DNA of 64,000 bases from Alphaproteobacteria bacterium UBA3768 (GTDB lineage Bacteria > Pseudomonadota > Alphaproteobacteria > CAAHEQ01 > UBA3637): assembly GCA_002372315.1 (NCBI GenBank), contig DFFU01000008.1, positions 12,014 to 76,013 on the forward strand, written 5' to 3'. The position numbers were made by a program, and so were the translations under genes. The notes under the pieces were generated by a model. The model ran no database searches and was not told the origin of the DNA. It was given only the letters and a program-made list of their open reading frames with translations. This document shows, one piece after another, positions 15,674 to 54,838 of this stretch. Within the stretch, counting starts at the first letter, position 1, and every line of letters begins with the position of its first letter.

Positions 15674-15712
15674 AAAAATCCCCGTCTTATTTTGGCGGGG
15701 ATTAAATTTATT
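15672..15712. terminator. Bidirectional Rho-independent terminator between mlaC and alaS
   Basis: 7-bp stem ATCCCCG/CGGGGAT with an 11-nt loop, flanked by an A-run upstream and a T-rich tract downstream. Confidence 0.6.
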
Positions 15713-17486
15713 TTTCCAAAACGGCTTTAATACGGCGTACCCCAGCAGAAGAGGATTCTTCCTTTTTAATTTTAAAATGCCCTAAATCTCCTGTATTGTT
15801 TGCATGTGGTCCCCCGCATACTTCTTTGGAAAAATCACCCATCGTATAGACTTTTACTAATTCAGCATCATAGCGATCCTTAAACAGGGCAGTAGCGCCA
15901 GATTCAATAGCCTTATCCAACGGCATTTCTTCGCAGGTAATCGGCATTTTTTTATTGATCGCCTCGTTCACCAAATCTTCCACTTGCTTGATTTCTTCGG
16001 GTGTCATCTTGCGCCCAAAGGAAAAGTCAAAACGTAAGCGTTCTGGTGTGATGTTGCTACCCTTTTGGGCGACTTCATCACCCAACACTTTGCGCAAAGC
16101 AGCGTGCAAAAGATGTGTTGCTGAATGCAAATTTGTGGTTTCCACCGAATGATCACTCAATCCGCATTTAAATTTTTGCTCAGAGCCAGCACGGGATAAA
16201 GCCTGATGCGCTTCAAAGCATTTATTAAAGCCCTCTACATCTACACTCAGGCCATTTTCTATGGCAATTTCTTGGGTAAATTCCAATGGAAAACCATAGG
16301 TATCATACAAATGGAAAGCCGTTTGCCCATCAATGGTTTTGTCCTTTAAATTTGATATCACTTTATCCATTTCTTTCAGGCCCGTTGTCAAAGTACGACT
16401 AAACAATTTTTCTTCTTTAGTCAGCTCATCCAAAATAAAGTTTTTATTGCGACCCAATTCAGGATAATCTGACGCATAGCGGTCAATGACGGTTTTGGCT
16501 AAATTGGGCAGTTCATTGGATTCAATGCCCAACTTTTTCATATTGCGAATGGCAATACGAATCAATCGGCGCAAAATATAACCTTGATCAGTATTGGAAG
16601 GCGTCAACCCCCGATCATCGCCCAAGATAAATACGCTGGCGCGCAAATGATCTGCAATTTTACGGAAAGCTTTTAAATCGCTTTCATATTTTCTGCCTGA
16701 TAAATTTTCCAGTTGTTGAATGGTATCAGAAAACATTTCTGTGGAATACACATCCTGAATGCCATTTAAGAAGCATAAAGTACGTTCTAAGCCCATTCCA
16801 GTATCTACATTTTTTTGTGCTAATAATTCGTATTTACCATCAGCTGTTTTATTGTATTGCATAAACACATCATTCCAAATTTCTGTATATTTACCACAAT
16901 GACAACCAGGCTTGCAATCTGGACAACACTTAGGTTGACCATTATCAATAAACATTTCGGTATCTGGTCCGCAAGGGCCAGTTTGACCCGCAGGTCCCCA
17001 CCAATTATCTTCTTTTCCACAGAAGAATATTTGATCATCGCGCAAACCTTGTTCTTTCCAATAACCAGCCGTTTCTTCGTCACGAGGAGCATTTTCATCG
17101 CCTGCAAAACACGTAACTGCTAACTGCTCTTTTTTAAAGCCCAGTTTTTGGGTTAAAAACTCAAAACTCCAAGCCACCATTTCTTTTTTAAAATAATCGC
17201 CCAAAGACCAGTTGCCCATCATCTGAAAAAAGGTCAAATGACTGGTATCTCCAACATCTGAAATATCATTGGTACGAACACATTTTTGAATATCAGTCAG
17301 GCGTGTTCCCGCGGGGTGTTTTTGTCCCATCAGATAAGGAATTAATGGTTGCATTCCTGCTGTGGTAAACAACACTGTTGGGTCATTTTCGGGTAGTACC
17401 GAGGCCGATGGAATTTCGGTGTGTCCCTTTGATTTAAAAAAGTCTAACCAAAGATTTCTTAATTCGTGATAGGTAAATGGCATTTT
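15708..17486 (-). CDS. alaS: Alanine--tRNA ligase, short form lacking the C-terminal Ala domain
   Basis: N-terminal class II core (FLDFFKSKGHTEIPSASVLPENDPTVLFTTAGM, KCVRTNDI). Editing-domain metal motifs HSATHLLH and CGGPH near the C-terminus. Start ATG at 17486 has AAAGGAG. Protein is ~592 aa against ~870 aa for canonical AlaRS. Confidence 0.85.
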   Translation of the reverse strand, partial: KMPFTYHELRNLWLDFFKSKGHTEIPSASVLPENDPTVLFTTAGMQPLIPYLMGQKHPAGTRLTDIQKCVRTNDISDVGDTSHLTFFQMMGNWSLGDYFKKEMVAWSFEFLTQKLGFKKEQLAVTCFAGDENAPRDEETAGYWKEQGLRDDQIFFCGKEDNWWGPAGQTGPCGPDTEMFIDNGQPKCCPDCKPGCHCGKYTEIWNDVFMQYNKTADGKYELLAQKNVDTGMGLERTLCFLNGIQDVYSTEMFSDTIQQLENLSGRKYESDLKAFRKIADHLRASVFILGDDRGLTPSNTDQGYILRRLIRIAIRNMKKLGIESNELPNLAKTVIDRYASDYPELGRNKNFILDELTKEEKLFSRTLTTGLKEMDKVISNLKDKTIDGQTAFHLYDTYGFPLEFTQEIAIENGLSVDVEGFNKCFEAHQALSRAGSEQKFKCGLSDHSVETTNLHSATHLLHAALRKVLGDEVAQKGSNITPERLRFDFSFGRKMTPEEIKQVEDLVNEAINKKMPITCEEMPLDKAIESGATALFKDRYDAELVKVYTMGDFSKEVCGGPHANNTGDLGHFKIKKEESSSAGVRRIKAVLEK

Positions 17487-17545
17487 TTTCTCCTTTGATA
17501 ATGGGGCGAAGTATATCAAAAATTTTCCCAAAAGTCAAGAATTTG

Positions 17546-21806: not shown

Positions 21807-22730
21807 ATGCGTTCAGATCAAATAGATGCTTTTTTGCAAATGATGCAGGCAGAACGGGGTGCTTCAGGTAACACTCTTTTGGCCTATGGTCGTGATATGA
21901 ATTTGTTGGATGAGTATTTTGATGCGCGTCAAAAAGATTTACTGAATGTGTCTGAAAAAGATTTGGCAGATTTTATCACTTTTTTGGCAAATAGTGGAGA
22001 CTCAGCCCGTACTCAGGCGCGTCGTTTATCCTGTATTCATGAATTTTATCGATTTGCTTATTCTGAAGATTGGATAAAGGTAAATCCTGCAAATTTTTTG
22101 CAAGGCCCGAAATTGCCCAAAGCACTGCCTAAATATTTGGCAGAACAAGAAGTTCTTCAATTGATACAAATTGCACAAGAAACCAATAAAAGATTATATG
22201 TTTTGTTGGAAGTTTTGTATGCTTCTGGTATGCGTGTCAGTGAACTGGTAGGGCTACCTGTGGGGGCTTTTAACAGGGAAGAAAAACATATTCAAATTGT
22301 GGGTAAGGGGGGACGTGAACGTATCGTTCCTTTAAATAATCACGCAATGGCTGCATTAGAGCAATGGATGATTTTACGTGAAAATGATCTTCCAGGTAAT
22401 CGCAAAACAAAATGGCTTTTTCCATCTTTTAAAAGTCATTTGGGGCATTTGACACGGGGGGCTTTTTTTAAAGAACTTAAAAAATTGGCTGTCCAAGTTG
22501 GAATTGATCCAGATAAGGTTTCTCCCCATGTTTTTCGGCATTCTTTTGCTTCGCACTTGGTGGCACATAACGCGGATTTACGTTCTGTTCAGCAAATGTT
22601 GGGACACGCACAAATTGCCACTACACAAATATATACGCATGTTTTACCAGACAGATTAAAAAAGATAGTTGAAAAATCTCATCCTTTATCGTATAATGGC
22701 CGTAAGGAAAAAAATGAAAATAACGGATAA
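21807..22730 (+). CDS. xerD: Tyrosine recombinase XerD (XerC/D family)
   Basis: SAM-like N-domain, and C-terminal catalytic residues in context (R..HxxR...Y: HVFRHSFASHL, TQIYTH). Adjacent to aroK. Confidence 0.8.
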   Translation: MRSDQIDAFLQMMQAERGASGNTLLAYGRDMNLLDEYFDARQKDLLNVSEKDLADFITFLANSGDSARTQARRLSCIHEFYRFAYSEDWIKVNPANFLQGPKLPKALPKYLAEQEVLQLIQIAQETNKRLYVLLEVLYASGMRVSELVGLPVGAFNREEKHIQIVGKGGRERIVPLNNHAMAALEQWMILRENDLPGNRKTKWLFPSFKSHLGHLTRGAFFKELKKLAVQVGIDPDKVSPHVFRHSFASHLVAHNADLRSVQQMLGHAQIATTQIYTHVLPDRLKKIVEKSHPLSYNGRKEKNENNG

Positions 22731-23808
22731 ATACATCTTAAGACAGCTGATTGTTGGCTTTTTATTGGTATTAACCTGCTTAACGATGCTGGTATGGTTG
22801 ACGCAATCTTTGCGTATGATTGATATGATTGTCAGTAAAGGTGTTGGTGTATGGATTTTTATTGAAATGACACTGTTGGTGTTGCCGAAATTTATGCAAA
22901 TTCTAATGCCGTTAGCCTTATTTGCAGTTGTTATGTTCACATTTATTCGCATGCAATCAGATAAAGAATTGATGGTGTTAAAAGCGGTGGGAATGAGTCC
23001 CAGTCAACTCATGCGACCTGTATTAAAAATGGCAACCTTTTTGATCCTTATTGGTTATATTCTTTCTTTTTTTGTCACTCCATGGGCCACGACAATGGTA
23101 CGGGAAATGCGTTGGAAAATCCAAAACAATTTATCTCATGTTTTATTACAAGAAGGGCAATTTAATACTTTTAAAAAAGGGATGATGGTTTATATTCGTG
23201 AACGCTTACCAGATGGTGCAATAAAAGGTGTTTTGGCTTATGAGATTAAAAATGGTAAAAAATCTGTTTTGATTGCGGATGAAGGCACTTTATACCAGAC
23301 ACCTGATGGTTTGGAAATTTTATTTGGTCAGGGGGTACGCCAGGAGTATGATCCTAAAAATCAAGGATTCTCTGTTTTAAAATTTGATAAGTACACGATT
23401 ACTTTAAATGACAGTCACCATTCGGGCAGTTCTCGTGTCCCGAGTGTTCAAGAATTACCATTTATGTATTTATTGACCGTTCCAAAAGATAAAGTGATTG
23501 ATCACGCCACTTGGCGTAAATATAAGGTGGAGGCATTTAAACGTATGACGCAGCCTTTATATAATCTGGTTTTTGCGCTGCTTGCATTAGTGGGTGTTTT
23601 GACGGGGCACTATAATCGCCGAGGTCAATCTGGACGCATTAACTTTGTTGTTGGGGCTGCTTTATTTATTCAAGTTTTTGCGTTGATGTTTGAAAATTTA
23701 TCTGGTAAGAATTTGTGGGCCATTATCTTGATGTGTTTGAATATTATTGTTCCTGTGTGGGTTATTTATCGTGTTTTTCAAAAAGAAGAAGGTCCACGTT
23801 TGAAAAAA
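22714..23808 (+). CDS. lptG: LPS export permease, LptF/LptG (YjgP/YjgQ) family; reads in-frame into lptD with no stop codon
   Basis: 6-TM permease with a central periplasmic domain, ~365 aa to the lptD ATG. The ATG at 22714 follows AAGGAAAAAA. No stop codon occurs before the lptD start. Confidence 0.7.
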
Positions 23809-25962
23809 ATGCCATTGAAATGCTTGATTTTATTGTTATGTTCATTGATGTCGTGCCCAGTTTGGGCTGTATCAAAAATAGATACCTCCGCTTTTAATAA
23901 AGAGCAACCTGTTGATTTTGAAGCGGACCATGTGTCTTATAATCAGCACAATCAAATTATGACTGCAAGTGGTAATGTTGTTTTAAAACAAAATGGTATT
24001 TTGTTTACCACTGATAAAATAATCTATAATCAAGAAAAGGATTTAATTCATATCCCAGGTCAGGCCAAAATGGTTTTACCTGATGGTAATTCATCTATTG
24101 TTCATGATATTCAAATGAAAGCACATGGGGATGAAGTGGCAACAGGCAAAGGAATAATGGACATGGCGGATGGAACACATTTATGGGCCAATCAGGTTAT
24201 ACGTCAAAATAAAGGGACAGAAAATATTTTAAAGGATGCCTACTATACGCCGTGTGATATGTGCGAAGGGAGTACGCCTTTATGGCAATTACATGCGACA
24301 TCTGTGGAACAAGATGATGAATCGCACATGATGCGTTTTTGGAATACTTTTTTGGAAATTAAGGATATTCCCGTTTTCTATTTTCCCTATTTTCAAACCC
24401 CTGATTATACGGTGAAACGTAAAACTGGTTTTTTAACACCGGGATTTGGCAGTGGTTCAGAACTAAAAACCCATATAGAGCTTCCTTTTTTTGTGAATAT
24501 TGCCCCCAATCAAAATTTAACCATAACACCTATGATCTCTTTTACACGTAATCCCCTTGGTATGTTGGATTATCAAGGATTATTCACCAAAGGAAAAGTC
24601 AATTTAAAGGCAAGTTTTACAGTTGATAAGGAACATCAAAATCAAGGACATATAGAGTCTGATTTTGAATATGATATAGATTCTTCTTGGCGCGTAACAG
24701 GGTCTTATAATCGTTCTTTGACTGACACATATTTTCGCCGTTACAATGTCTTGGATGTGGATCAGACACAATCTTATTTGACTTCTCATTTAGGGACTGA
24801 ATATTATGGGAACAGAGTACAAGGTGAGGCTACATTCTATAATTTCCAAAGTTTACAGGATGGGGTTTCATCCAAAACAATCCCTGTTATTTTACCTGTT
24901 TTTAATGCACACTATACAACATTACCCTTTACCGAAGATGGTGGTGTTATGTTTTCGGATATAAATGGGGCTTTTATCAATACGCGCAGACATTTTAAAT
25001 CAAATCGTATCTCTTTGACACAAGGTATTCAATTACCTTATCGGACTTCTTGGGGGCTTTCTACTGAATTATCTGGAACAGTGCGTATGGATGGATACAG
25101 TGTGGATACGGGGGAAGATGGAATTGGTTTTGGTCGAAAAAATGATTCTTATTTTACAGGGCGCATATTTCCTCAGGCCGTTTTAAAAATTGGATACCCT
25201 TTGATTCAAAAAGGAATGAAATATACCCAAGTTTTAGAGCCAATTGTCATGTTGGTTGTGGGACCCAATGGTTCAAATAGTGATAAAATTCCTAATGTGG
25301 ATAGTACTGTTTTTGATTTTGATGATGCTAATTTGTTTTCAGCCAATCGTTACGTAGGGTATGATAGGGTAGAATCTGGATCGCGAATCAATTATGGTGT
25401 TCAGTGGACATTGTATCAAACGGGAAAAAATCGATCCATTCAGGCTCTGTTAGGGCAAAGTGTACGATTGAGAAATGAAACAGAATTGGATGATGCCATG
25501 GGTTACGAACATCATTTTTCCAGTTATGTCGGTCGGTTACGCTTAAATTATGAGTATTTATCATTGGCTTATCGCTTTCGTTTTTCAGAACATAACCTAG
25601 AACCTCAAAAAAATGATATATCTTTGCAACTAGGTGGTGCTCCGTTAAGTGTTGGTATTGATTATTTATTTCAAGATTCATTTCGCATGAAAAATATATA
25701 TTCAACTGCCAAAAAAGAAATTTCAATCTTTGCTAAATCACGCTTAACCAAAAATTGGTCGGCTGAAGCGCGCCACAGATATAATTTACTTAAACCCAAT
25801 CGGGGGGCTTTAGAAACTTATGGTGTTTTGCGCTATGATAATGAATGTACAGCTGTTGAATTAGTTGGAAAGAAATCTTATACTTATGATCGTAACTATC
25901 GTGGTAGTACATCAATAAGTGTCAGGTTCTATTTAAAGACAATAGGAGGTTTTGGACAATGA
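23809..25962 (+). CDS. lptD: LPS-assembly outer-membrane protein LptD
   Basis: Signal peptide MPLKCLILLLCSLMSCPVWA, then an N-terminal OstA-like domain and a large C-terminal beta-barrel. surA follows, as in the conserved lptD-surA arrangement. Confidence 0.8.
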   Translation: MPLKCLILLLCSLMSCPVWAVSKIDTSAFNKEQPVDFEADHVSYNQHNQIMTASGNVVLKQNGILFTTDKIIYNQEKDLIHIPGQAKMVLPDGNSSIVHDIQMKAHGDEVATGKGIMDMADGTHLWANQVIRQNKGTENILKDAYYTPCDMCEGSTPLWQLHATSVEQDDESHMMRFWNTFLEIKDIPVFYFPYFQTPDYTVKRKTGFLTPGFGSGSELKTHIELPFFVNIAPNQNLTITPMISFTRNPLGMLDYQGLFTKGKVNLKASFTVDKEHQNQGHIESDFEYDIDSSWRVTGSYNRSLTDTYFRRYNVLDVDQTQSYLTSHLGTEYYGNRVQGEATFYNFQSLQDGVSSKTIPVILPVFNAHYTTLPFTEDGGVMFSDINGAFINTRRHFKSNRISLTQGIQLPYRTSWGLSTELSGTVRMDGYSVDTGEDGIGFGRKNDSYFTGRIFPQAVLKIGYPLIQKGMKYTQVLEPIVMLVVGPNGSNSDKIPNVDSTVFDFDDANLFSANRYVGYDRVESGSRINYGVQWTLYQTGKNRSIQALLGQSVRLRNETELDDAMGYEHHFSSYVGRLRLNYEYLSLAYRFRFSEHNLEPQKNDISLQLGGAPLSVGIDYLFQDSFRMKNIYSTAKKEISIFAKSRLTKNWSAEARHRYNLLKPNRGALETYGVLRYDNECTAVELVGKKSYTYDRNYRGSTSISVRFYLKTIGGFGQ

Positions 25963-32507: not shown

Positions 32508-32633
32508 AACAAATTCCAATTAATGATATAAAATAAGTTATTGATTTAAAAGATAAAAAAATCCAAGGGGATTGGACATATCTTGACGCATTTAAAACTA
32601 ACACATTTTATCCATTTAAGCAAAAAGAAAATT

Positions 32634-32660
32634 AAGTTATTTTCCTCTTGAAAATAACTT
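32634..32660. promoter_or_regulatory. Perfect 11-bp inverted repeat (AAGTTATTTTC-N5-GAAAATAACTT) overlapping the -35 of the hydCBA promoter; candidate operator
   Basis: The palindrome was read directly from the sequence. TTGATT (-35) overlaps the right arm and TATAAA (-10) lies 17 nt downstream. The hydC ATG is at 32728. Confidence 0.35.
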
Positions 32661-32727
32661 GATTTTTATATAGGACTGTGCTATAAATTCTTTATCGTTT
32701 CTTTAAAGATAAAAAAAGGAGAAGATA

Positions 32728-33222
32728 ATGGCCGAAGATAAAACAAAAATCCAAGAAGATACCAGAAAAATTTTGGTGAAATGGAAGACAAAACGTGGGT
32801 CACTCATCATGGCTTTGCATGAAATTCAAGGGGCGTTTGGTTATGTTCCGTGGGATGCGATGGAGGTTGTGGCCGAAGAGCTTAAAATCCCAATGGCGCA
32901 AATCTATTCAGTTCTGACATTTTATAACTATTTTAAATTGACAGCTCCAGGTAAGGTCGTTATTTCTATTTGTGATGGTACTGCCTGCCATATCAAAGGC
33001 GGTCAATCCGTCATTGAAGCCTTTGAAAAAGAATTGGGTGTACCCGCCGGTACAACGACAGAGGATGGATTATTTTACATTCAAATCGTGCGTTGTTTGG
33101 GGTGTTGTGGTCTGGCGCCTGTCGTGGTTGTAAATGGTAAAACTTATGGTCGTGTGACACCGCTTGATGCACCCAAAATTGTGGCTGAATGGCGTGAAAC
33201 AATGGCTAAGGAAGGAGTATAA
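32728..33222 (+). CDS. hydC: [FeFe]-hydrogenase small subunit, NuoE-like [2Fe-2S] thioredoxin-fold protein (HydC/HndA)
   Basis: 164 aa with the NuoE cysteine pattern (ICDGTACHIKGG ... CLGCCGLAPVV). RBS AAAGGAGAAG. Confidence 0.8.
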   Translation: MAEDKTKIQEDTRKILVKWKTKRGSLIMALHEIQGAFGYVPWDAMEVVAEELKIPMAQIYSVLTFYNYFKLTAPGKVVISICDGTACHIKGGQSVIEAFEKELGVPAGTTTEDGLFYIQIVRCLGCCGLAPVVVVNGKTYGRVTPLDAPKIVAEWRETMAKEGV

Positions 33223-33223
33223 A

Positions 33224-34984
33224 ATGGTTGAATTATCTCAAGAACAAATTGAAAAATTAAAGGCTTTAGGGCGTACCCAAAAAGAAAATTTAATCAAGTT
33301 GGGTGAAGAATTCAAAGAAAAAGTGAAAAATTATAAGGCCTCTATTTATACCTGTAATGCAACCAGCTGCCATTCAGGTGGAGCCGCTAGCGTGTTGGAT
33401 GCCTTCCGTGAAAGTTTGACCGCAGCAGGATTAGAGGCAGATGTGCGTGTGGTTTGTACAGGCTGTATGGGGCTTTGTGCTTCCGGACCTTTGGCCCGTG
33501 TAGAAATTAAGGGTAAAAAAGCTGTTCTTTATCAACATGTAACCCCAGATATGGCACGTGTGATTGTGTCTGAACATGTGGTGCCAGCCCTGAAAACAGA
33601 AGGGGAAGTCAAGACGTCCGATTATTTGAAAAAACAAGAATTGTCTTTGGATTTGCCGTTCTTTACAAAACAGCGCAAGATTGTATTGCGCTTGTTGGGA
33701 CATTCTGATCCCGAAGATTTGGGCGAATATATTGCCAACGGTGGCTATCAAGGATTAATGAAAGCTCTGACCATGAAACCAGAAGAGGTCTTGGAAATTA
33801 TTAAAAAGTCAGGCCTACGTGGTCGTGGTGGTGGTGGCTTCCCTACAGGAACAAAGTGGGAAATGCTATCCAAATCCCCCTTGGTTGACGGTGAAAAATT
33901 CATGATTTGTAACGGGGACGAAGGTGATCCAGGTGCTTATATGGACTCCTGTATTTTGGGTGGTGGTTCCCATGCCGTATTGGAAGGGATGATGATTGGT
34001 GCCTATGCGACAGGGGCAACCTCAGGTTGGTTCTATATTCGCGCGGAATATCCTTTGGCCATCCAACGTATGGAACTCGCCATTAAACAAGCCAAACGTT
34101 ATGGTATTTTGGGGCGCAACATTTTTGGCACAGATTTTAACTTTATGGCGGATATTCGCTATGGGGCTGGGGCCTTTGTATGCGGAGAAGAAACAGCTTT
34201 GATGTCCTCTGTGGAAGGCAAGCGTGGGACACCGCGTCCTCGCCCGCCGTTCCCGACACAAAAGGGATTGTTTGATAAGCCAACTGCCATCAACAACGTG
34301 GAAACTTTGGCAAACGTTGGTCCGATTATGGTCAATGGTCCTGAATGGTTCAGCGAAGTGGGAACGGCCACGTCCAAGGGAACCAAAGTGTTTGCCATTA
34401 CCGGTAAAGTGAAGCATTCCGGATTGGTGGAAGTGCCAATGGGAACAACTGTTGGTGAAATGGTGAATGATATTGGTGGCGGCACCAGTTCTGGTAAGCC
34501 CTTTAAGGCGGTGCAAACAGGTGGTCCTTCGGGCGGTGTGATTCCGGCATCCGAACTCCATATGCCGCTCTGTTATGAAGAACTTAAAAAAATCGGTTCT
34601 ATGATGGGATCAGGTGGGATGATTGTCATGGATCAAGATGACAGTATGGTGGAAATCGCCAAGTTCTATTTGGGCTTTACCGTGGATGAATCTTGTGGTA
34701 AGTGTGCGCCTTGCCGAATTGGTGGCTATCAAATGTTGCAGCTGATGAAAAAGATTGCAGACGGGAAAGGTACTAAGGCAGATGTTGCCAAGATTAAAGA
34801 AATCGGGAATGCCATGAAAAAGGCTTCTTTGTGTGGCTTAGGTCAAACAGCACCGAATCCAGTGCTGTCCACCATGAAATTCTTTAAAAACGAATATGAT
34901 GCTTTGCTGATTGACGGAAATGAACCTGATGAAGAAAACACCGAAAAACAAGTCAAAGCCTGTAATATCAACACGAAAAAATAA
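33224..34984 (+). CDS. hydB: [FeFe]-hydrogenase flavoprotein subunit, NuoF-like NAD(P)H-binding (HydB/HndC)
   Basis: N-terminal Trx-like 2Fe-2S domain (CNATSCHSGG...CTGCMGLC). NuoF core with FMN/NADH motifs (GRGGGGFPTGTKWE, GDEGDPGAYMD). The 4Fe-4S motif CGKCAPCRIGG. RBS GGAGTAT. Confidence 0.85.
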   Translation: MVELSQEQIEKLKALGRTQKENLIKLGEEFKEKVKNYKASIYTCNATSCHSGGAASVLDAFRESLTAAGLEADVRVVCTGCMGLCASGPLARVEIKGKKAVLYQHVTPDMARVIVSEHVVPALKTEGEVKTSDYLKKQELSLDLPFFTKQRKIVLRLLGHSDPEDLGEYIANGGYQGLMKALTMKPEEVLEIIKKSGLRGRGGGGFPTGTKWEMLSKSPLVDGEKFMICNGDEGDPGAYMDSCILGGGSHAVLEGMMIGAYATGATSGWFYIRAEYPLAIQRMELAIKQAKRYGILGRNIFGTDFNFMADIRYGAGAFVCGEETALMSSVEGKRGTPRPRPPFPTQKGLFDKPTAINNVETLANVGPIMVNGPEWFSEVGTATSKGTKVFAITGKVKHSGLVEVPMGTTVGEMVNDIGGGTSSGKPFKAVQTGGPSGGVIPASELHMPLCYEELKKIGSMMGSGGMIVMDQDDSMVEIAKFYLGFTVDESCGKCAPCRIGGYQMLQLMKKIADGKGTKADVAKIKEIGNAMKKASLCGLGQTAPNPVLSTMKFFKNEYDALLIDGNEPDEENTEKQVKACNINTKK

Positions 34985-34994
34985 GGATCAGAAA

Positions 34995-36752
34995 ATGGTA
35001 AAATTAACAATTGATTCAAAAGTGGTTGAAGTTCCAGAAGGAACAACAATTTTAGATGCGGCCAAGTCTGCGCAAATCAAGATTCCGACACTGTGTCATC
35101 ATCCTGATTTGCCACCCACAGCCGCTTGCGGTATTTGTATCGTGAAGGTGGGCAATCGCATGGTACGTTCCTGTTGTACACCAGTGGCTGAAGGTATGGA
35201 AGTCATTACGCGTGATCCAGATATTATTGAAGCGCGTCGGACAGTGTTAAAACTGACTCTCAGTAAACATCCCAATGAATGCTTGACTTGTTTGAAAAAC
35301 GAAACATGTGAATTGCGTAAACTCTCGGCTGATTTTGGGATTCGTGATACAGAATTTGCAAACATTACACCCAGCAAAGAAGAAATGCCATTGGATGATT
35401 CCACCAAAAGTATCGTTTTGGATCCACGCAAGTGTATCTTGTGTGGGCGTTGTGTGGAAGTTTGTCAAAATGTTCAAAATGTGTGGGCATTATCTATGCT
35501 CAAACGTGGTATCAATACACACATTTCACCGGCGGCTGATAACAAGTTAGGGGATAGTCCTTGTATCAAGTGTGGTCAATGTACGGCTCACTGTCCAACA
35601 GGGGCACTCACCGAACGTGATGATACACAATATGTATGGAGTTTGTTACAAGATCCTGAAAAATATTGTGTGGTTCAAATTGCACCGGCTGTGCGTGTGG
35701 CTATCGGTGAAGCCTTTGGCTATAAGCCCGGTGAAATCACCACAGGTAAAATCTATGCAGCTTTGCGTCGCTTGGGCTTTAATGCTGTATTTGATACCAA
35801 CTTTGGTGCTGACGTGACCATTATGGAAGAAGGCAGCGAATTTATTGAACGTTTTGTGAATGGTAAAGGTGCTTTGCCACTCATTACTTCTTGCTGTCCG
35901 GCTTGGGTGGATTATATGGAAAAGTATTTCAGCGATATGATTCCACATTTTTCCAGCTGTAAGTCCCCGCATGAAATCGTGGGTGCATTGGCAAAGACAT
36001 ACTATGCCGATAAGGTCAATGTCCCAACCGAAAAAATGCGTGTGATTTCTATCATGCCCTGTACGGCGAAAAAGTTTGAAATCTTGCGCAGTGAAGAAAT
36101 GTTCTCCTCTGGTTTCCAAGATGTAGATGTTTCGCTTACGACTCGTGAATTAGCCCGTATGATAAAGCAGGCTGGTATTGATTTTGTCAATTTGCCTGAG
36201 GAAGAGGCTGATTCACCATTGGGATCTTATACGGGTGCTGGTACAGTATTCGGATTTTCTGGTGGCGTGATGGAGGCTGCCTTGCGTACTGTCCACGCTG
36301 TTGTGACAGGTAAGGAAATGCCTGAAGATGCTTTGGAAGTCAAACCCATTTTGGGCTTAGATAAAGGTATCAAAGAAATGACCATGGATCTGAATGGCAA
36401 GGAAGTCCGTATTGCTGTTGCTCATGGCATTGGGCACGTTCAAGCGCTTCTTGAAAAAGTGCGTGAGGCTGAACAAAAAGGCGAAGAGCCCCCCTATCAC
36501 TTTATTGAAGTGATGGCTTGCCAAGGCGGCTGTGTAGGTGGTGGTGGCCAACCTTTGGGGGTCACGGACGAAATCCGTAAAGCCCGTATGGAAGGTTTGA
36601 TGAAAGATGACCGCGGATCCAAGCAACGCTGTTCGCATTTGAATCCGGATGTGAAAAAACTTTATGATGAATTTTTGGGTAAGCCCTTATCTGAACGTTC
36701 TCATCACCTTTTGCACACCAGTTATCAAAAGCGTGAGCTTTACAAAAAATAA
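34995..36752 (+). CDS. hydA: [FeFe]-hydrogenase catalytic subunit HydA
   Basis: N-terminal 2Fe-2S ferredoxin domain. Two CxxCxxCxxxCP 4Fe-4S motifs (CILCGRCVEVC, CIKCGQCTAHCP). All three H-cluster signatures: TSCCPAW (L1), MPCTAKK (L2) and EVMACQGGCVGGGGQP (L3). Confidence 0.9.
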   Translation: MVKLTIDSKVVEVPEGTTILDAAKSAQIKIPTLCHHPDLPPTAACGICIVKVGNRMVRSCCTPVAEGMEVITRDPDIIEARRTVLKLTLSKHPNECLTCLKNETCELRKLSADFGIRDTEFANITPSKEEMPLDDSTKSIVLDPRKCILCGRCVEVCQNVQNVWALSMLKRGINTHISPAADNKLGDSPCIKCGQCTAHCPTGALTERDDTQYVWSLLQDPEKYCVVQIAPAVRVAIGEAFGYKPGEITTGKIYAALRRLGFNAVFDTNFGADVTIMEEGSEFIERFVNGKGALPLITSCCPAWVDYMEKYFSDMIPHFSSCKSPHEIVGALAKTYYADKVNVPTEKMRVISIMPCTAKKFEILRSEEMFSSGFQDVDVSLTTRELARMIKQAGIDFVNLPEEEADSPLGSYTGAGTVFGFSGGVMEAALRTVHAVVTGKEMPEDALEVKPILGLDKGIKEMTMDLNGKEVRIAVAHGIGHVQALLEKVREAEQKGEEPPYHFIEVMACQGGCVGGGGQPLGVTDEIRKARMEGLMKDDRGSKQRCSHLNPDVKKLYDEFLGKPLSERSHHLLHTSYQKRELYKK

Positions 36753-36756
36753 AAGA

Positions 36757-36788
36757 ACCCCCGACCAAACGGTCGGGGATTTTTTTTG
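36757..36788. terminator. Bidirectional Rho-independent terminator after hydA / RNHCP gene
   Basis: GC-rich stem CCCCGACC-AAAC-GGTCGGGG followed by a T8 run. Confidence 0.7.
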
Positions 36789-36795
36789 ATTGATT

Positions 36796-37143
36796 TTACC
36801 TAACGTGAAGTTTTTGTTTCATATAAAAATCCATCGCTTGATGCGAAAGAGCCAATAAAGCATCAAAATTGTCATTGGGACTTGTTTTGTTACGACGGAT
36901 ATGTCCACATTTGGTGCAACGATGGACAATATAGTCATGTCCATTTTTATGTTCCAACTTTTCGGCTAACATGATTCCATGACAATTGCAAGCTCTGTCA
37001 CCAGGATTCACATCCACGTGCAGTGATGACAAACATTCAGGGCAGTGGTTAGTATAACCATTACCTTTGACCTTTGTGCCACAAACGACACAGGTAAAAT
37101 CCTCTACTTTTCTGGTAAATTGAGCCGTTTTCATGTCCGACAT
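36796..37143 (-). CDS. RNHCP domain-containing zinc-ribbon protein
   Basis: Motif YTNHCPECLSSLHVD plus additional CxxC pairs. The start is probably MSDMK (37143) rather than the upstream in-frame ATG. Confidence 0.6.
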   Translation of the reverse strand: MSDMKTAQFTRKVEDFTCVVCGTKVKGNGYTNHCPECLSSLHVDVNPGDRACNCHGIMLAEKLEHKNGHDYIVHRCTKCGHIRRNKTSPNDNFDALLALSHQAMDFYMKQKLHVR

Positions 37144-37178
37144 TATAACACAAATCAAAAAAAAATGCAAGAAAACAC

Positions 37179-37207
37179 TTGACCTCATGAAAATTTTGCG
37201 CTATAAT
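37179..37207 (+). promoter_or_regulatory. Sigma70-type promoter of tRNA-Leu
   Basis: TTGACC, 17 nt, TATAAT, about 21 nt upstream of the mature tRNA 5' end. Confidence 0.5.
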
Positions 37208-37228: not shown

Positions 37229-37315
37229 GCGGATATGGCGGAACTGGTAGACGCAACGGACTTAAAATCCGTTGGGGGCAACCCCGTGCCGGTTCGATTC
37301 CGGCTTTCCGCACCA
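37229..37315 (+). tRNA. tRNA-Leu (anticodon UAA), type II with long variable arm
   Basis: Manual fold: acceptor GCGGATA/TTTCCGC (one T:T mismatch at 6:67), D-arm GCGG..AACTGGTAG..ACGC, anticodon stem ACGGA/TCCGT with loop CTTAAAA, long variable arm, T-arm GCCGG-TTCGATT-CCGGC, and an encoded CCA. Confidence 0.85.
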
Positions 37316-37883: not shown

Positions 37884-37975
37884 AATCAACCAAATTTTGA
37901 ACAGAAGTATATTGTAATTCAAAAAAATCAAACATAGGATTGTTTTTTTATAACTATTTGATATAATATTTTTGT

Positions 37976-53683: not shown

Positions 53684-54838
53684 ACGGTTCAAAAACTGAC
53701 AGATAATATCTTTTATATCGGTGTGGATGATAAGACTTTGGATTTATTTGAAGGTCAATATGTTATCCCCAATGGCGTAAGCTATAATTCCTATGTGATT
53801 ATGGATGAAAAAGTGGCCGTGATGGATACAGTGGATATTCGTGCCACAGAGACTTGGTTTGAAAATTTGGCCACAGTTTTGAATGACAGATTGCCAGATT
53901 ATTTAATCGTATCGCATATGGAACCCGATCATGCGGGCAGCATCCAAAAATTTGTTGAAAAGTATCCTGAAACAAAAATTGTAATGACAGGGGCCGCCCA
54001 AAAAATGTTAGGGCAATTTTTCCCCGAATTAAATATTCCCGTTCAAGTAGTGGGAGAAGGAGCAACATTAGCATTGGGGCGCCACACCTTGCACTTTATT
54101 TTGGCACCTATGGTGCATTGGCCGGAAGTCATGATGACCTATGATGCAACGGATAAGGTTTTATTTTCGGCGGATGCTTTTGGTAAATTTGGGGCGCTGG
54201 ATACAAATGAAGATTGGGCCTGCGAAGCACGTCGTTATTATTTTAACATTGTGGGTAAATATGGGCCTCAGGTTCAGGCAGTTTTGAAAAAAGCCTCTGC
54301 ATTGGATATTCAAAAAATCTTTCCTTTACATGGGCCAATGCTGACAGACAATTTAGCCTATTATTTGGAAAAATATAACATTTGGAGTTCTTATCAACCC
54401 GAAGATAAAGGTGTCTTTATTGCCTATGTATCCATTTATGGCAATACCAAAAAAGCCTGTGAGTTATTAAAAACGAAATTGGAACAAAAAGGTGTTAAGG
54501 TGGCTATATCTGACTTGGCACGGGATGATATGGCCGAATGTTTGGAAGATGCTTTTCGCTATGATCGTTTGGTGTTGGCATCTCCCACCTATGATACGGG
54601 TATTTTCCCAACGATGGAAACTTTTATTGTGCACCTAAAATCCAAAAATTATCAAAACAGGATGATTGCTTTGATTGAAAATGGGTCATGGGCACCTCAG
54701 GCTGCCAAAAAGATGCGTACAGAATTGGAAGCATTAAAGAATATTGCTTTTGTGGAACCCGTGATTACGATTAAATCGGCAATGACAAAAGAAAATGAAT
54801 CCCAAATGACAGACTTGGCAGACCAATTATGCAAATAA
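53684..54838 (+). CDS. Flavodiiron protein (A-type flavoprotein; O2/NO reductase), metallo-beta-lactamase-like + flavodoxin domains
   Basis: Di-iron site motif SHMEPDHAG in the lactamase-fold domain. C-terminal flavodoxin domain (FIAYVSIYGNTKK). RBS AAAGGAG before ATG 53684. Confidence 0.8.
   Translation, partial: TVQKLTDNIFYIGVDDKTLDLFEGQYVIPNGVSYNSYVIMDEKVAVMDTVDIRATETWFENLATVLNDRLPDYLIVSHMEPDHAGSIQKFVEKYPETKIVMTGAAQKMLGQFFPELNIPVQVVGEGATLALGRHTLHFILAPMVHWPEVMMTYDATDKVLFSADAFGKFGALDTNEDWACEARRYYFNIVGKYGPQVQAVLKKASALDIQKIFPLHGPMLTDNLAYYLEKYNIWSSYQPEDKGVFIAYVSIYGNTKKACELLKTKLEQKGVKVAISDLARDDMAECLEDAFRYDRLVLASPTYDTGIFPTMETFIVHLKSKNYQNRMIALIENGSWAPQAAKKMRTELEALKNIAFVEPVITIKSAMTKENESQMTDLADQLCK

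What the first reader, a model, noticed from the sequence alone, without database searches (positions are those of the whole stretch)
32728..36752. Complete trimeric NADH-dependent (bifurcating-type) [FeFe]-hydrogenase operon hydCBA
The three genes are tightly spaced and carry every diagnostic cysteine motif: NuoE-like 2Fe-2S, NuoF-like FMN/NADH and 4Fe-4S sites, and the H-cluster L1/L2/L3 motifs TSCCPAW, MPCTAKK and ExMACxGGCxxGGGQP in HydA. [FeFe]-hydrogenases are rare in alphaproteobacteria and in reduced host-associated genomes. Here one sits next to core genes (rnr, tRNA-Leu), with a flavodiiron protein gene elsewhere in the window (53684-54838). This argues for a fermentative, hydrogen-evolving or hydrogen-consuming anaerobe, possibly a symbiont of an anaerobic host. 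The HydB here lacks the C-terminal 2x[4Fe-4S] ferredoxin domain found in characterised bifurcating HydB.
Basis: partly seen in the sequence, partly recalled or inferred. Interest (0 to 1): 0.75.

Follow-up and report, generated by a model that had tools for sequence, protein, structure and literature searches.

The report
Rumen alphaproteobacterial NADH-linked [FeFe]-hydrogenase operon
This is a real, intact three-gene [FeFe]-hydrogenase operon (hydCBA) from an uncultured sheep-rumen alphaproteobacterium whose NADH-binding subunit has lost the ferredoxin-docking module, so it most likely exchanges electrons only between NADH and H2; it is a member of an already reported kind rather than a surprise.

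Summary
hydC (32728-33222), hydB (33224-34984) and hydA (34995-36752) are intact and tightly spaced, and a bidirectional terminator follows them. Every H-cluster and Fe-S ligand is present.

The organism is an uncultured rumen/gut alphaproteobacterium. Its HydA is 99% identical to that of MAG UBA3637, and exact copies occur in sheep-rumen assemblies.

The new result concerns HydB. All 48 gut-alphaproteobacterial relatives lack the C-terminal 2x[4Fe-4S] ferredoxin-like domain (B3/B4). They have also replaced the five ligands of the adjacent Zn/'B2' site. The nearest non-alphaproteobacterial relatives (60-65% HydA identity) keep both. The domain-less sequences form one clade (bootstrap 100). They are under strong purifying selection (dN/dS about 0.03-0.04). 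They still carry the flavin-site residues considered diagnostic of bifurcating enzymes.

Structural work places ferredoxin binding on B3/B4. The best reading is therefore a ferredoxin-independent NAD(H):H2 oxidoreductase derived from a bifurcating ancestor.

HymABC-like clusters plus HydEFG in gut alphaproteobacteria were reported in 2016, and B3/B4-less HydB lineages are known elsewhere. No hydEFG lies in the window or within 10 kb of the operon in the alphaproteobacterial loci checked. Whether the genome has them could not be tested.

The parts
32716..32721 (+). Shine-Dalgarno-like AAGGAG, 6 nt upstream of the hydC ATG. It lies at the end of a 220-bp AT-rich intergenic region (32508-32727) that presumably holds the promoter.
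   Evidence: Sequence read directly. The consensus promoter scan gave no match above background (13 found against 10.5 expected), so the promoter itself is not located.
32728..33222 (+). hydC: NuoE-like thioredoxin-fold [2Fe-2S] subunit (164 aa). It carries cluster C1 (Cys82, 87, 123, 127).
   Evidence: Pfam PF01257, E 4.9e-47. Best NCBIfam matches are HoxE/NuoE. Cys positions. Relatives are 80-96% identical in the window's clade.
33224..34984 (+). hydB: NuoF-like FMN/NAD(H) subunit (586 aa). Present: the N-terminal thioredoxin-like [2Fe-2S] (C44/49/81/85; 'B5'), the FMN loop GLRGRGGGGFP, the SLBB domain with GGPSG, and the [4Fe-4S] 'B1' (C491/494/497/537). Absent: the C-terminal 2x[4Fe-4S] domain (B3/B4) and the Zn/'B2' site ligands. 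The tail of about 25 residues ends in ...KACNINTKK.
   Evidence: Pfam and NCBIfam. PDB comparison: 7t2r_B 623 bits, 7q4v_B 615 bits, and all bifurcating chains extend 65-78 aa further. Tail survey of 80 loci. Loss of five ligand positions. dN/dS 0.034.
34995..36752 (+). hydA: M3-type group A [FeFe]-hydrogenase catalytic subunit (585 aa). It has an N-terminal [2Fe-2S], a His-ligated [4Fe-4S], two [4Fe-4S] clusters, and the H-domain with L1/L2/L3 motifs and a small-subunit-like C-terminus.
   Evidence: Pfam. NF040763: 801 bits against a cut-off of 765. Best solved relatives are the bifurcating T. kivui HydA1 (613 bits) and A. woodii HydA1 (576 bits); CpI scores 427-429 bits. All ligand Cys/His are invariant in 48+27 relatives. 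dN/dS 0.041.
36756..36781 (.). Bidirectional intrinsic terminator (CCCCGACC-AAAC-GGTCGGGG flanked by A/T runs). It is shared by hydA and the convergent RNHCP-domain gene (36796-37188, minus strand).
   Evidence: Terminator scan: 8-11 bp stem with 7 G-C pairs and T-runs on both strands. Sequence read.

Best explanation
hydCBA encodes a functional soluble HydABC-type [FeFe]-hydrogenase of an uncultured rumen alphaproteobacterium.

Proposed electron path: NADH donates a hydride to the FMN of HydB. Electrons pass through the HydB [4Fe-4S] (B1) and the HydA F-clusters to the H-cluster, where protons are reduced to H2. The path is reversible, so H2 can also reduce NAD+.

HydB has lost the whole ferredoxin branch: the B3/B4 ferredoxin-like domain and the Zn/'B2' hinge site. 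The enzyme is therefore most likely ferredoxin-independent, that is non-bifurcating. It would act as an NADH redox valve when H2 is kept low by rumen methanogens, or as an H2:NAD+ oxidoreductase when H2 is higher.

The loss happened once, in the ancestor of a gut-associated alphaproteobacterial clade. That ancestor's enzyme was of the bifurcating (Bfu) type, which explains why the flavin-site 'bifurcating' signature residues and the N-terminal [2Fe-2S] are still present.

Shown here: gene integrity, cofactor ligands, the domain and ligand loss, its restriction to one clade, purifying selection, and the taxon and habitat. Inferred, not shown: activity, ferredoxin independence, direction of catalysis, and presence of the maturases.
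For: - Anatomy and family assignment.
- Missing HydB C-terminal domain: (the query ends about 21 aa after the alignment; solved bifurcating chains extend 65-78 aa); all alphaproteobacterial HydB have tails of 19-64 aa after the LCGLGQTAPNP motif with 0-4 Cys. The Omnitrophota, Spirochaetota, Fibrobacterota and Elusimicrobia relatives whose tail was located have 86-89 aa with 10-11 Cys; six more have CT+-type lengths (579-617 aa), and one search counts 27 CT+ in all.
- Positions 158, 474, 561, 567 and 572 are Cys/Cys/His/Cys/Cys in 27 of 27 domain-bearing relatives and are replaced in 48 of 48 domain-less ones. Four Cys plus one His is consistent with the 3 Cys + 1 His Zn site, which was modelled with five ligands as [2Fe-2S] in A. 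mobile (PMC9499530). The match to those ligands is my inference.
- Single origin: NJ tree of HydA plus the HydB core. The domain-less sequences form one bipartition with bootstrap 100. Among 50%-identity representatives the clade is nested in domain-bearing lineages.
- Function retained: dN/dS is 0.041 (hydA) and 0.034 (hydB) at dS about 1-2. All H-cluster and F-cluster ligands are invariant.
- Role of B3/B4 from the literature. PMC9499530: present in all characterised bifurcating [FeFe] hydrogenases, absent in the non-bifurcating ones. PMC10021017: ferredoxin docks on the HydB C-terminal domain. PMC12018979: ferredoxin was captured next to B3/B4, and the low-potential path is C1-B3-B4-Fd. PMC11406978 and PMC7311640: S. 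wolfei HydABC, which lacks B3/B4, makes H2 from NADH without ferredoxin.
- Ecology: sheep-rumen source. A rumen fungus has been shown to use a non-bifurcating NADH hydrogenase under methanogen-lowered H2 (PMC13556243).
Against: - The three residue signatures that Losey et al. 2020 call 'more diagnostic' than cluster content are of the bifurcating type here: Ala238/Met240 in DEGDPGAYMD, and GGPSG at 433. I could not place their third position (Phe versus Tyr at T. maritima 367) for lack of the T. maritima sequence. The GAGAF motif is of the type seen in the bifurcating relatives.
- The closest solved relatives are all bifurcating enzymes.
- The N-terminal [2Fe-2S] of HydB and cluster C1 of HydC, both implicated in bifurcation, are strictly conserved.
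- PFOR, a ferredoxin reducer, lies 1.5-2.5 kb downstream of the operon in two relatives. This hints at a functional link to ferredoxin.
- No hydE/F/G was found in the 64-kb window, in the 8 kb beyond its 3' end, or within 10 kb of the operon in the alphaproteobacterial loci screened.
- No biochemistry exists for any member of the clade.
Confidence: 0.6

Rival explanations
1. The complex still uses ferredoxin. Either it is a minimal bifurcating/confurcating enzyme in which ferredoxin exchanges electrons directly with HydC-C1 or with the HydB N-terminal [2Fe-2S]. Or it is an uncoupled dual-donor hydrogenase in which reduced ferredoxin from PFOR feeds the peripheral F-clusters of HydA, as in monomeric CpI, while NADH feeds in through HydBC.
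For: Bifurcating-type flavin-site residues, GGPSG, C1 and the N-terminal [2Fe-2S] are all retained and invariant. The proposed bifurcation site is FMN+B1+C1 (PMC12018979), and all three are present. PFOR lies adjacent to hydCBA in L015 and L023 (TIGR02176, 1764 bits). HydA has the full M3 F-domain, which in CpI leads to the ferredoxin site (PMC9499530).
Against: Every characterised bifurcating member has B3/B4, and ferredoxin was seen bound there (PMC9499530, PMC12018979). The hinge-site ligands needed for the gating movement are also lost. No small ferredoxin-type ORF lies beside the operon in any alphaproteobacterial locus. Related gut alphaproteobacteria are reported to carry a separate hydrogenase (the authors' 'type A'; PMC4967309) that could take the ferredoxin electrons instead; that it is ferredoxin-linked is my assumption.
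Confidence: 0.25
2. The operon was recently acquired horizontally and is not a stable trait of the lineage. Its physiological role in this organism would then be incidental.
For: The genes flanking hydCBA are not shared with even the closest HydA relatives (86-99% identity). The nearest non-alphaproteobacterial relatives belong to unrelated phyla. The operon's GC (0.41-0.45) is slightly above the window mean of about 0.38.
Against: HydA identity tiers (96-99, 86-93, 72-78%) parallel those of the housekeeping Lon protease (92, 85-86, 71-75%). The domain-less clade is almost entirely alphaproteobacterial (46 of 48). The distant CAG-239-like subclade has the same LptFG-LptD / SurA / GrpE / RNase PH genes within 7 kb of hydCBA as the window does, which points to an old shared neighbourhood. 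dS of about 1 even to the 98%-identical UBA3637 copy excludes a recent transfer.
Confidence: 0.08
3. The operon is a non-functional relic or a non-catalytic (sensory) hydrogenase homologue, because no maturases accompany it.
For: No hydE/F/G in the window or near the operon in the alphaproteobacterial loci checked. Some alphaproteobacteria, such as R. rubrum, were reported to have HydA without maturases (PMC4967309).
Against: dN/dS is 0.03-0.04 and all catalytic and cluster ligands are invariant over 48 species-level genomes. The operon has an intact terminator and RBSs. There is no PAS or other sensory domain, and HydA scores above the curated cut-off of the catalytic A-group model. HydE, HydF and HydG are reported at dispersed positions in related gut alphaproteobacterial genomes (PMC4967309, Table 1).
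Confidence: 0.04

Closest known systems
Electron-bifurcating HydABC of Thermoanaerobacter kivui, Acetobacterium woodii and Thermotoga maritima (Bfu family; PDB 8a6t, 7q4v, 7p5h) and the A. mobile NiFe-HydABCSL HydB (7t2r)
   Same: Same three subunits. These are the highest sequence similarity among solved structures (HydB 517-623 bits, HydA 390-613 bits). Same M3 HydA, HydC C1, HydB FMN site with the A-x-M / GAGAF / GGPSG signatures, the B1 cluster and the N-terminal [2Fe-2S].
   Different: It lacks the HydB C-terminal ferredoxin-like domain (B3/B4) and the five Zn/'B2' ligand residues. There is no HydA C-terminal [2Fe-2S] extension as in T. maritima (585 against 645 aa). Gene order here is hydC-hydB-hydA.
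[quoted passage not shown]
   Same: A multimeric HydA plus NuoF/NuoE-like module without the B3/B4 clusters. The predicted chemistry is the same: reversible NADH-to-H2 conversion without ferredoxin, feasible only at low H2.
   Different: Those HydB subunits carry T/S and K/S/A at the NADH site, Tyr instead of Phe, and no GGPSG. They also lack the N-terminal cluster, and they form a separate HydB clade. The window's HydB has the bifurcating-type residues, keeps the N-terminal [2Fe-2S], and groups with domain-bearing sequences. This looks like an independent, convergent loss.
'Sub-type II' BfuABC of Hydrogenedentota, Acidobacteriota, Actinomycetota and Planctomycetota (PMC11406978)
   Same: A Bfu-type HydABC that is predicted non-bifurcating because BfuB lacks B3 and B4. 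A representative with that architecture (P0127, 54% identical) is the nearest neighbour of the alphaproteobacterial clade in the representative tree.
   Different: Sub-type II also lacks B5, the N-terminal [2Fe-2S]. Here B5 is invariant in 47 of 47 complete sequences. The taxa and habitat differ. Whether P0127 really is a sub-type II protein was not established.
hymABC-like NuoE/NuoF/[FeFe]-hydrogenase clusters of human-gut alphaproteobacterial MAGs (Azospirillum sp. CAG:239, Acetobacter sp. CAG:977; Degli Esposti et al. 2016, PMC4967309)
   Same: The same kind of operon in the same kind of organism: uncultured gut alphaproteobacteria with small genomes. Those genomes are reported with HydE/F/G, PFOR and a short ferredoxin elsewhere in the genome. 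MAGs labelled 'Azospirillum sp.' fall in the 60-63% subclade of the domain-less clade.
   Different: That paper did not comment on the truncated NuoF-like subunit and treated the cluster as hymABC-like. The window belongs to a different, ruminant-associated subclade (UBA3637-like).
Hydrogenosomal Hyd-NuoE-NuoF of the rumen fungus Caecomyces churrovis (PMC13556243)
   Same: An experimentally shown ferredoxin-independent NADH-to-H2 complex from the same habitat. Its flavoprotein also lacks a ferredoxin path.
   Different: Its NuoE and NuoF derive from mitochondrial complex I, not from HydB/HydC. The three proteins are encoded separately in a eukaryote.

Membership tests
Group A [FeFe]-hydrogenase catalytic subunit (M3 type) | H-cluster motifs L1 (TSCCPxW), L2 (MPCxxKxxE) and L3 (ExMxCxxGCxxGxGQP) | tested here: met
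   TSCCPAW at 298, MPCTAKKFE at 354, EVMACQGGCVGGGGQP at 505. The Cys are invariant in 75 relatives. Fe_hyd_lg_C E 4e-95.
Group A [FeFe]-hydrogenase catalytic subunit (M3 type) | N-terminal F-domain: [2Fe-2S], His-ligated [4Fe-4S] and two [4Fe-4S] clusters | tested here: met
   C34/45/48/60; H92/C96/C99/C105; C147-157; C190-200.
Group A [FeFe]-hydrogenase catalytic subunit (M3 type) | Score above the curated family cut-off | tested here: met
   NF040763: 801 bits against a cut-off of 765. TIGR02512: 508 bits against 406.
Group A [FeFe]-hydrogenase catalytic subunit (M3 type) | Maturases HydE, HydF and HydG encoded in the same genome | tested here: inconclusive
   None in the 64-kb window, in the 8 kb beyond its 3' end, or within 10 kb of the operon in the alphaproteobacterial loci screened. 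Reported for related gut MAGs (PMC4967309). Confirmed HydE/F/G lie next to the operon only in non-alphaproteobacterial relatives.
Electron-bifurcating HydABC / Bfu family (Schut 2022; Furlan 2022) | HydC/BfuC with [2Fe-2S] C1, and HydB with FMN and the [4Fe-4S] B1 | tested here: met
Electron-bifurcating HydABC / Bfu family (Schut 2022; Furlan 2022) | Bifurcating-type residues at the NAD(H)/FMN site (Ala and Met at T. maritima 232/234) and GGPSG in the SLBB domain | tested here: met
   DEGDPGAYMD (A238, M240) and GGPSG at 433. The A238-to-G433 spacing of 195 equals T. maritima 232-to-427. The Phe/Tyr position quoted as T. maritima 367 could not be placed unambiguously without that sequence.
Electron-bifurcating HydABC / Bfu family (Schut 2022; Furlan 2022) | HydB C-terminal ferredoxin-like domain with two [4Fe-4S] clusters (B3/B4), found in all characterised bifurcating members | tested here: not met
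   About 21 residues follow the end of the alignment to the solved chains (40 after the LCGLGQTAPNP motif), with one Cys. Solved bifurcating chains extend 65-78 residues; domain-bearing relatives have 86-89 residues after the same motif with 10-11 Cys. No separate ferredoxin-type ORF lies beside the operon.
Electron-bifurcating HydABC / Bfu family (Schut 2022; Furlan 2022) | Zn / 'B2' hinge site (Cys and His ligands) next to the C-terminal domain | tested here: not met
   Five positions are invariant Cys/His in 27 domain-bearing relatives and are replaced in all 48 domain-less sequences. Equating them with the published ligands is by inference, not by structure.
Electron-bifurcating HydABC / Bfu family (Schut 2022; Furlan 2022) | Tightly coupled NADH + reduced ferredoxin to H2 activity | not testable with these tools
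   Needs enzyme assays.
Non-bifurcating NADH-dependent [FeFe]-hydrogenase (S. wolfei / S. aciditrophicus type; Losey 2020) | Beta subunit without the extra Fe-S domains (no B3/B4) | tested here: met
Non-bifurcating NADH-dependent [FeFe]-hydrogenase (S. wolfei / S. aciditrophicus type; Losey 2020) | Thr/Ser and Lys/Ser/Ala at T. maritima 232/234, Tyr near FMN, and no GGPSG | tested here: not met
   Ala, Met and GGPSG are present, and the motif is GAGAF.
Non-bifurcating NADH-dependent [FeFe]-hydrogenase (S. wolfei / S. aciditrophicus type; Losey 2020) | Beta subunit branches in the separate non-bifurcating HydB clade | tested here: inconclusive
   The nearest lineages in two NJ trees carry the C-terminal domain. 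S. wolfei and S. aciditrophicus reference sequences could not be included.
Sub-type II BfuABC (PMC11406978) | BfuB lacks B3, B4 and B5 | tested here: not met
   B3 and B4 are absent, but the B5 ligands C44/49/81/85 are present and invariant.

The most novel reading that the evidence does not exclude
The gut-alphaproteobacterial HydABC may be a natural 'minimal Bfu core': FMN + B1 + C1 + N-terminal [2Fe-2S], with the bifurcating-type flavin pocket but no B3/B4 or hinge site.

One possibility is that it still couples ferredoxin and NADH through a different docking site. That would show that B3/B4 are dispensable for flavobicluster-based bifurcation.

The other possibility is that it is strictly non-bifurcating despite carrying every 'diagnostic' bifurcating residue. 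That would show that those residue signatures do not predict bifurcation, and that metagenomic counts of 'group A3 = bifurcating' hydrogenases in rumen and gut are inflated.
Probability: 0.15. Interest if true: 0.7.

Novelty: new member of a known kind. Interest (0 to 1): 0.33.

Why it matters
In a whole gut-alphaproteobacterial clade (at least 46 species-level genomes from ruminants, humans and mice) the ferredoxin module has been deleted. These enzymes should probably be counted as NADH-only hydrogenases. Their H2 production is then thermodynamically dependent on H2 scavengers such as methanogens.

The clade is also a ready-made natural deletion series for testing which parts of HydB are needed for flavin-based bifurcation. 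Its members lack B3/B4 and the hinge site but keep the flavin pocket and the N-terminal cluster.

The clade has been cited in debates on an alphaproteobacterial origin of eukaryotic hydrogenases. Nothing found here adds directly to that question.

Tried and rejected
1. Maturases. I screened the window (Pfam on about 45 ORFs) and all 80 related loci (motif screen; candidates verified as HydE/F/G by NCBIfam). They lie next to the operon only in Omnitrophota, Fibrobacterota, Chitinispirillia and one unclassified MAG, never in alphaproteobacterial loci. I ran no further search on HydG, because a non-alphaproteobacterial query would list only its own relatives.

2. Walking outwards from the window. 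The first ORF is not on record. The 3' side gave 8 kb more, with no relevant genes.

3. Promoter. The consensus scan was not above background.

4. Synteny as evidence of vertical descent. The flanks differ among close relatives. Only a distant subclade shares the Lpt/SurA/GrpE/RNase PH neighbourhood.

5. Trans-encoded replacement of the lost domain. No small 2x[4Fe-4S] ORF lies near the operon in any alphaproteobacterial locus. The only extra hits are PFOR genes.

6. Assembly artefact or frameshift as the cause of the short HydB. Rejected. The same 586-aa product occurs in three independent assemblies. The same architecture occurs in 48 species-level genomes, with co-ordinated loss of internal ligand residues.

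7. Losey's third signature position (T. maritima 367) could not be mapped confidently. My first guess, the Phe of GAGAF, has the wrong spacing.

8. Literature searches for CAG-239 + hydrogenase and for HydB + non-bifurcating + Alphaproteobacteria found nothing.

9. Structure prediction was not run. Sequence alignment to solved chains already answers the domain question.

Full report
**What is there.** The window carries three co-directional, tightly packed ORFs at exactly the coordinates given: hydC 32728-33222, hydB 33224-34984 (ATG start) and hydA 34995-36752. Each is preceded by a Shine-Dalgarno-like sequence. A G+C-rich bidirectional hairpin terminator at 36756-36781 follows, shared with a convergent RNHCP-domain gene.

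Pfam and NCBIfam assign the three products as follows:
- HydC is a NuoE-like thioredoxin-fold [2Fe-2S] protein.
- HydB is a NuoF-like flavoprotein with an extra N-terminal [2Fe-2S] domain.
- HydA is an M3-type group A [FeFe]-hydrogenase. It scores 801 bits against NF040763 'NADH-dependent [FeFe] hydrogenase, group A6' (cut-off 765).

The neighbouring RNase R gene, tRNA-Leu and flavodiiron protein are also as described.

**Whose genome it is.** The exact HydA sequence occurs in a 54-kb ENA scaffold and two Logan contigs from sheep-rumen samples. Another window protein occurs in the sheep-rumen WGS set AUXO01.

In one genome per species of GTDB, HydA is 99% identical (best segment) to 'Alphaproteobacteria bacterium UBA3637'. 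It is 86-97% identical to MAGs from roe deer, sheep, yak and other gut samples. Of the 80 best loci, 46 are labelled as alpha- or unclassified proteobacterial MAGs from ruminant, human and mouse guts.

The housekeeping Lon protease of the window gives the same picture. Its named hits are 'Alphaproteobacteria bacterium' at 85% and 74%. Its identity tiers (92, 85-86, 71-75%) parallel those of HydA (96-99, 86-93, 72-78%).

Ruminant-gut alphaproteobacteria of the order RF32 have been described as having reduced genomes of about 1.6 Mb (PMC8199421). I did not establish the order of this organism. It is a gut-lumen-associated, probably anaerobic bacterium. Nothing tested here indicates that it is an endosymbiont.

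**The informative feature: HydB has lost its ferredoxin branch.** Against solved structures, HydB is most similar to the B subunits of bifurcating enzymes: A. mobile 7t2r_B at 623 bits, A. woodii 7q4v_B at 615, T. kivui 8a6t_B at 559 and T. maritima 7p5h_B at 517. The alignment always stops about 21 residues before the end of the query, while those chains continue for 65-78 residues.

I surveyed the HydB gene next to each of the 80 related HydA genes.
- Every alphaproteobacterial HydB has a short tail after the LCGLGQTAPNP motif: 19-64 residues with 0-4 Cys.
- The Omnitrophota, Spirochaetota, Fibrobacterota, Chitinispirillia, Elusimicrobia and Brevinematales relatives whose tail was located (HydA 60-65% identical) keep 86-89 residues with 10-11 Cys. 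That is the 2x[4Fe-4S] ferredoxin-like domain (B3/B4). Six further relatives have CT+-type lengths (579-617 aa). classes 27 sequences as domain-bearing.

The loss goes beyond a truncation. Five positions (window HydB 158, 474, 561, 567, 572) are Cys, Cys, His, Cys, Cys in 27 of 27 domain-bearing relatives and are replaced in 48 of 48 domain-less ones. This four-Cys-plus-one-His pattern is consistent with the Zn site (3 Cys + 1 His) at the hinge of the C-terminal domain, which was modelled as a five-ligand [2Fe-2S] 'B2' in A. mobile (PMC9499530). Equating the positions with those ligands is my inference.

By contrast, the N-terminal [2Fe-2S] ligands C44/49/81/85 are invariant in the domain-less clade, although 11 of the 27 domain-bearing relatives have lost them. 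An assembly error is excluded. The same 586-aa product is called in three independent assemblies, and the architecture is shared by 48 species-level genomes.

**One event, then long maintenance.**
- An NJ tree of concatenated HydA and the HydB core (1105 columns, 100 bootstraps) separates all 48 domain-less sequences from the rest with support of 100. Two of the 48 carry non-proteobacterial labels ('Planctomycetota', 'Lactobacillales'). I could not tell whether that is mis-binning or transfer.
- In a search of 1.84 billion cluster representatives, the nearest representative is domain-less (P0121, 60% identical). The next is another domain-less protein that also lacks the N-terminal cysteines (P0127). 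The successive outgroups carry 10-12 Cys tails. The state is therefore derived from a domain-bearing, Bfu-type ancestor.
- Within the window's own subclade, dN/dS is 0.041 for hydA and 0.034 for hydB, at synonymous divergences near saturation (dS about 1-2). This includes dS of about 0.9 to the 98%-identical UBA3637 copy. All H-cluster and F-cluster ligands are invariant. The operon is under strong purifying selection and is not a relic.

**How it most likely works.** All three cryo-EM studies of HydABC/NfnABC place the low-potential branch on the HydB C-terminal domain.
- Ferredoxin is proposed to dock on this domain (PMC10021017).
- Ferredoxin was captured bound next to B3/B4, and the path is C1-B3-B4-Fd (PMC12018979).
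- The S. wolfei HydABC, which lacks B3/B4, makes H2 from NADH without ferredoxin at low H2 (PMC7311640, PMC11406978).

With B3, B4 and the hinge site gone, the only complete wire in this enzyme is NAD(H) - FMN - B1 - HydA F-clusters - H-cluster. I therefore favour a reversible, ferredoxin-independent NAD(H):H2 oxidoreductase (confidence about 0.6).

NADH-driven H2 formation is only feasible at roughly 1-10 Pa H2 up to a few tens of Pa (PMC13556243, PMC7311640). The enzyme would then work as an NADH valve when methanogens keep H2 low, and could run towards NADH at higher H2. The direction, the cofactor specificity (NAD or NADP) and the activity itself are inferred, not shown.

**What argues the other way.** Losey et al. 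(PMC7311640) regard residue signatures as more diagnostic than cluster content. Here they are of the bifurcating type: Ala238 and Met240 in DEGDPGAYMD, and GGPSG at 433. The spacing of 195 is the same as T. maritima 232-427. The motif is GAGAF rather than GAGAY.

The proposed bifurcating 'flavobicluster' FMN+B1+C1 (PMC12018979) is intact. In two relatives a PFOR gene (TIGR02176, 1764 bits) lies 1.5-2.5 kb downstream of hydA, so reduced ferredoxin is made in this lineage. A ferredoxin-using variant remains possible (about 0.25). It could be either a minimal bifurcating core or an uncoupled enzyme that takes ferredoxin electrons at the HydA F-domain, as CpI does. Against it:
- no replacement ferredoxin-type ORF lies beside the operon;
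- related gut alphaproteobacteria are reported to possess a separate hydrogenase (the authors' 'type A'; PMC4967309) that could handle ferredoxin, although its ferredoxin dependence is my assumption.

**The maturase question.** No hydE/F/G lies in the window, in the 8 kb beyond its 3' end, or within 10 kb of hydCBA in the alphaproteobacterial loci screened. Verified HydE/F/G do lie next to the operon in several non-alphaproteobacterial relatives.

Degli Esposti et al. list HydE, HydF and HydG at dispersed accession numbers in the related gut MAGs CAG:239, CAG:260 and CAG:977 (PMC4967309, Table 1). Together with the selection data, this makes absence unlikely but does not prove presence here.

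**History of the locus.** The flanks of hydCBA are not conserved among the closest relatives, so 'embedded among core genes' is weak evidence in itself. The distant CAG-239-like subclade (HydA about 62%) nevertheless has the LptFG-LptD fusion, SurA, GrpE and RNase PH genes within 7 kb of its hydCBA. These are the same genes that lie 6-12 kb upstream in the window. That suggests an old shared neighbourhood followed by rearrangement. A recent transfer is unlikely (about 0.08).

**Comparison with what is known, and verdict.**
- NuoE/NuoF-linked M3 hydrogenase clusters in uncultured gut alphaproteobacteria, with maturases and PFOR, were published in 2016 (PMC4967309).
- Non-bifurcating HydABC enzymes are biochemically established (PMC7311640).
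- Bfu-type HydB lineages lacking B3/B4 (and B5) have been catalogued as 'sub-type II' (PMC11406978).

The window's operon is therefore a new member of a known kind. The specific combination is B3/B4 and hinge lost, with the N-terminal cluster and the bifurcating-type flavin pocket kept, fixed across a gut alphaproteobacterial clade. I did not find it described in the searchable literature. It is a modest refinement with a practical consequence: these 'group A3/A6' genes should not be counted as bifurcating in rumen and gut H2 models. Overall interest is about 0.33.

Noticed in passing
window 22669-25962 (+): A single 1097-aa ORF fuses an LptF/LptG permease domain (residues 21-361) to an LptD outer-membrane domain (668-1030). 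A fusion that is 29-32% identical lies near hydCBA in the CAG-239-like alphaproteobacterial MAGs. An inner-membrane permease fused to an outer-membrane beta-barrel is topologically odd.
   Followed up: partly
window 37900-43500: A low-GC island (GC 0.28-0.32 against about 0.38) lies directly downstream of tRNA-Leu(TAA) at 37229-37315. It holds a 745-aa membrane sulfatase-family protein, a GT41 glycosyltransferase and a 271-aa orphan, followed by a serine resolvase (42858-43481). It is probably a horizontally acquired surface-modification island.
   Followed up: no
window 34903-34984 (HydB residues 561-586): The short HydB tail is not random. Both ends are conserved in the window's subclade (LL[IVLQ]DG[NDQ]EPD ... 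[AG]C[NT]IN[TI]K[KRN]) around a variable linker, with tail dN/dS of 0.13. The sister subclade ends in GCNVNCMKR or GCSGQCKK, often after a coiled-coil-like stretch. The CAG-239-like subclade has no Cys there. Function unknown.
   Followed up: partly
window HydB Cys450 (about 34571-34573) and HydA Cys322 (about 35958-35960): Two cysteines are invariant in all 48 domain-less sequences. In the domain-bearing relatives the first is Asp/Gly/Ser and the second is mostly Ala. These are clade-specific substitutions that arose together with the domain loss. Their meaning is unknown.
   Followed up: no
L015 13332-16958 and L023 14307-17849: A full-length pyruvate:ferredoxin oxidoreductase (TIGR02176, about 1760 bits) lies 1.5-2.5 kb downstream of hydA in two alphaproteobacterial MAGs of the 77% subclade. 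This links the operon to pyruvate fermentation in this lineage.
   Followed up: partly
L084 20284-20969; L088 and L089 20946-21701: Ankyrin-repeat proteins are encoded about 8 kb beyond the window's 3' end and near hydCBA in human-gut (Hadza) relatives. Such proteins are frequent in host-interacting bacteria.
   Followed up: no
L004-L014 and L087 (flanks of hydCBA): The genes around hydCBA differ between species whose HydA is 86-99% identical. Many flanking ORFs have no Pfam hit: 12 of the 17 flanking genes in L087. This indicates rapid rearrangement or a variable genomic region.
   Followed up: partly
P0127 (cluster representative, 656 aa): Another HydB relative (54% identical) has the bifurcating-type A-x-M / GAGAF / GGPSG signatures but no C-terminal domain and no cysteines in its N-terminal thioredoxin-like region. 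It is the NJ sister of the alphaproteobacterial clade. It may correspond to the 'sub-type II BfuB' described for Hydrogenedentota and Acidobacteriota.
   Followed up: partly
L053 1122-2882: In one Spirochaetales MAG the HydB reading frame breaks inside the C-terminal ferredoxin domain (tail of 63 aa with 4 Cys). This is a frameshift, an assembly error or an incipient loss.
   Followed up: no
window 15708-17531 (-) and 11238-13148 (-): The alanyl-tRNA synthetase ORF is only 607 aa (catalytic and SAD domains, no C-terminal part). A ClpB-like ORF is 636 aa and overlaps the MutY-like ORF (10283-11440) by about 200 nt. These are possible truncations, or start-codon ambiguities, of the kind seen in reduced genomes.
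   Followed up: no
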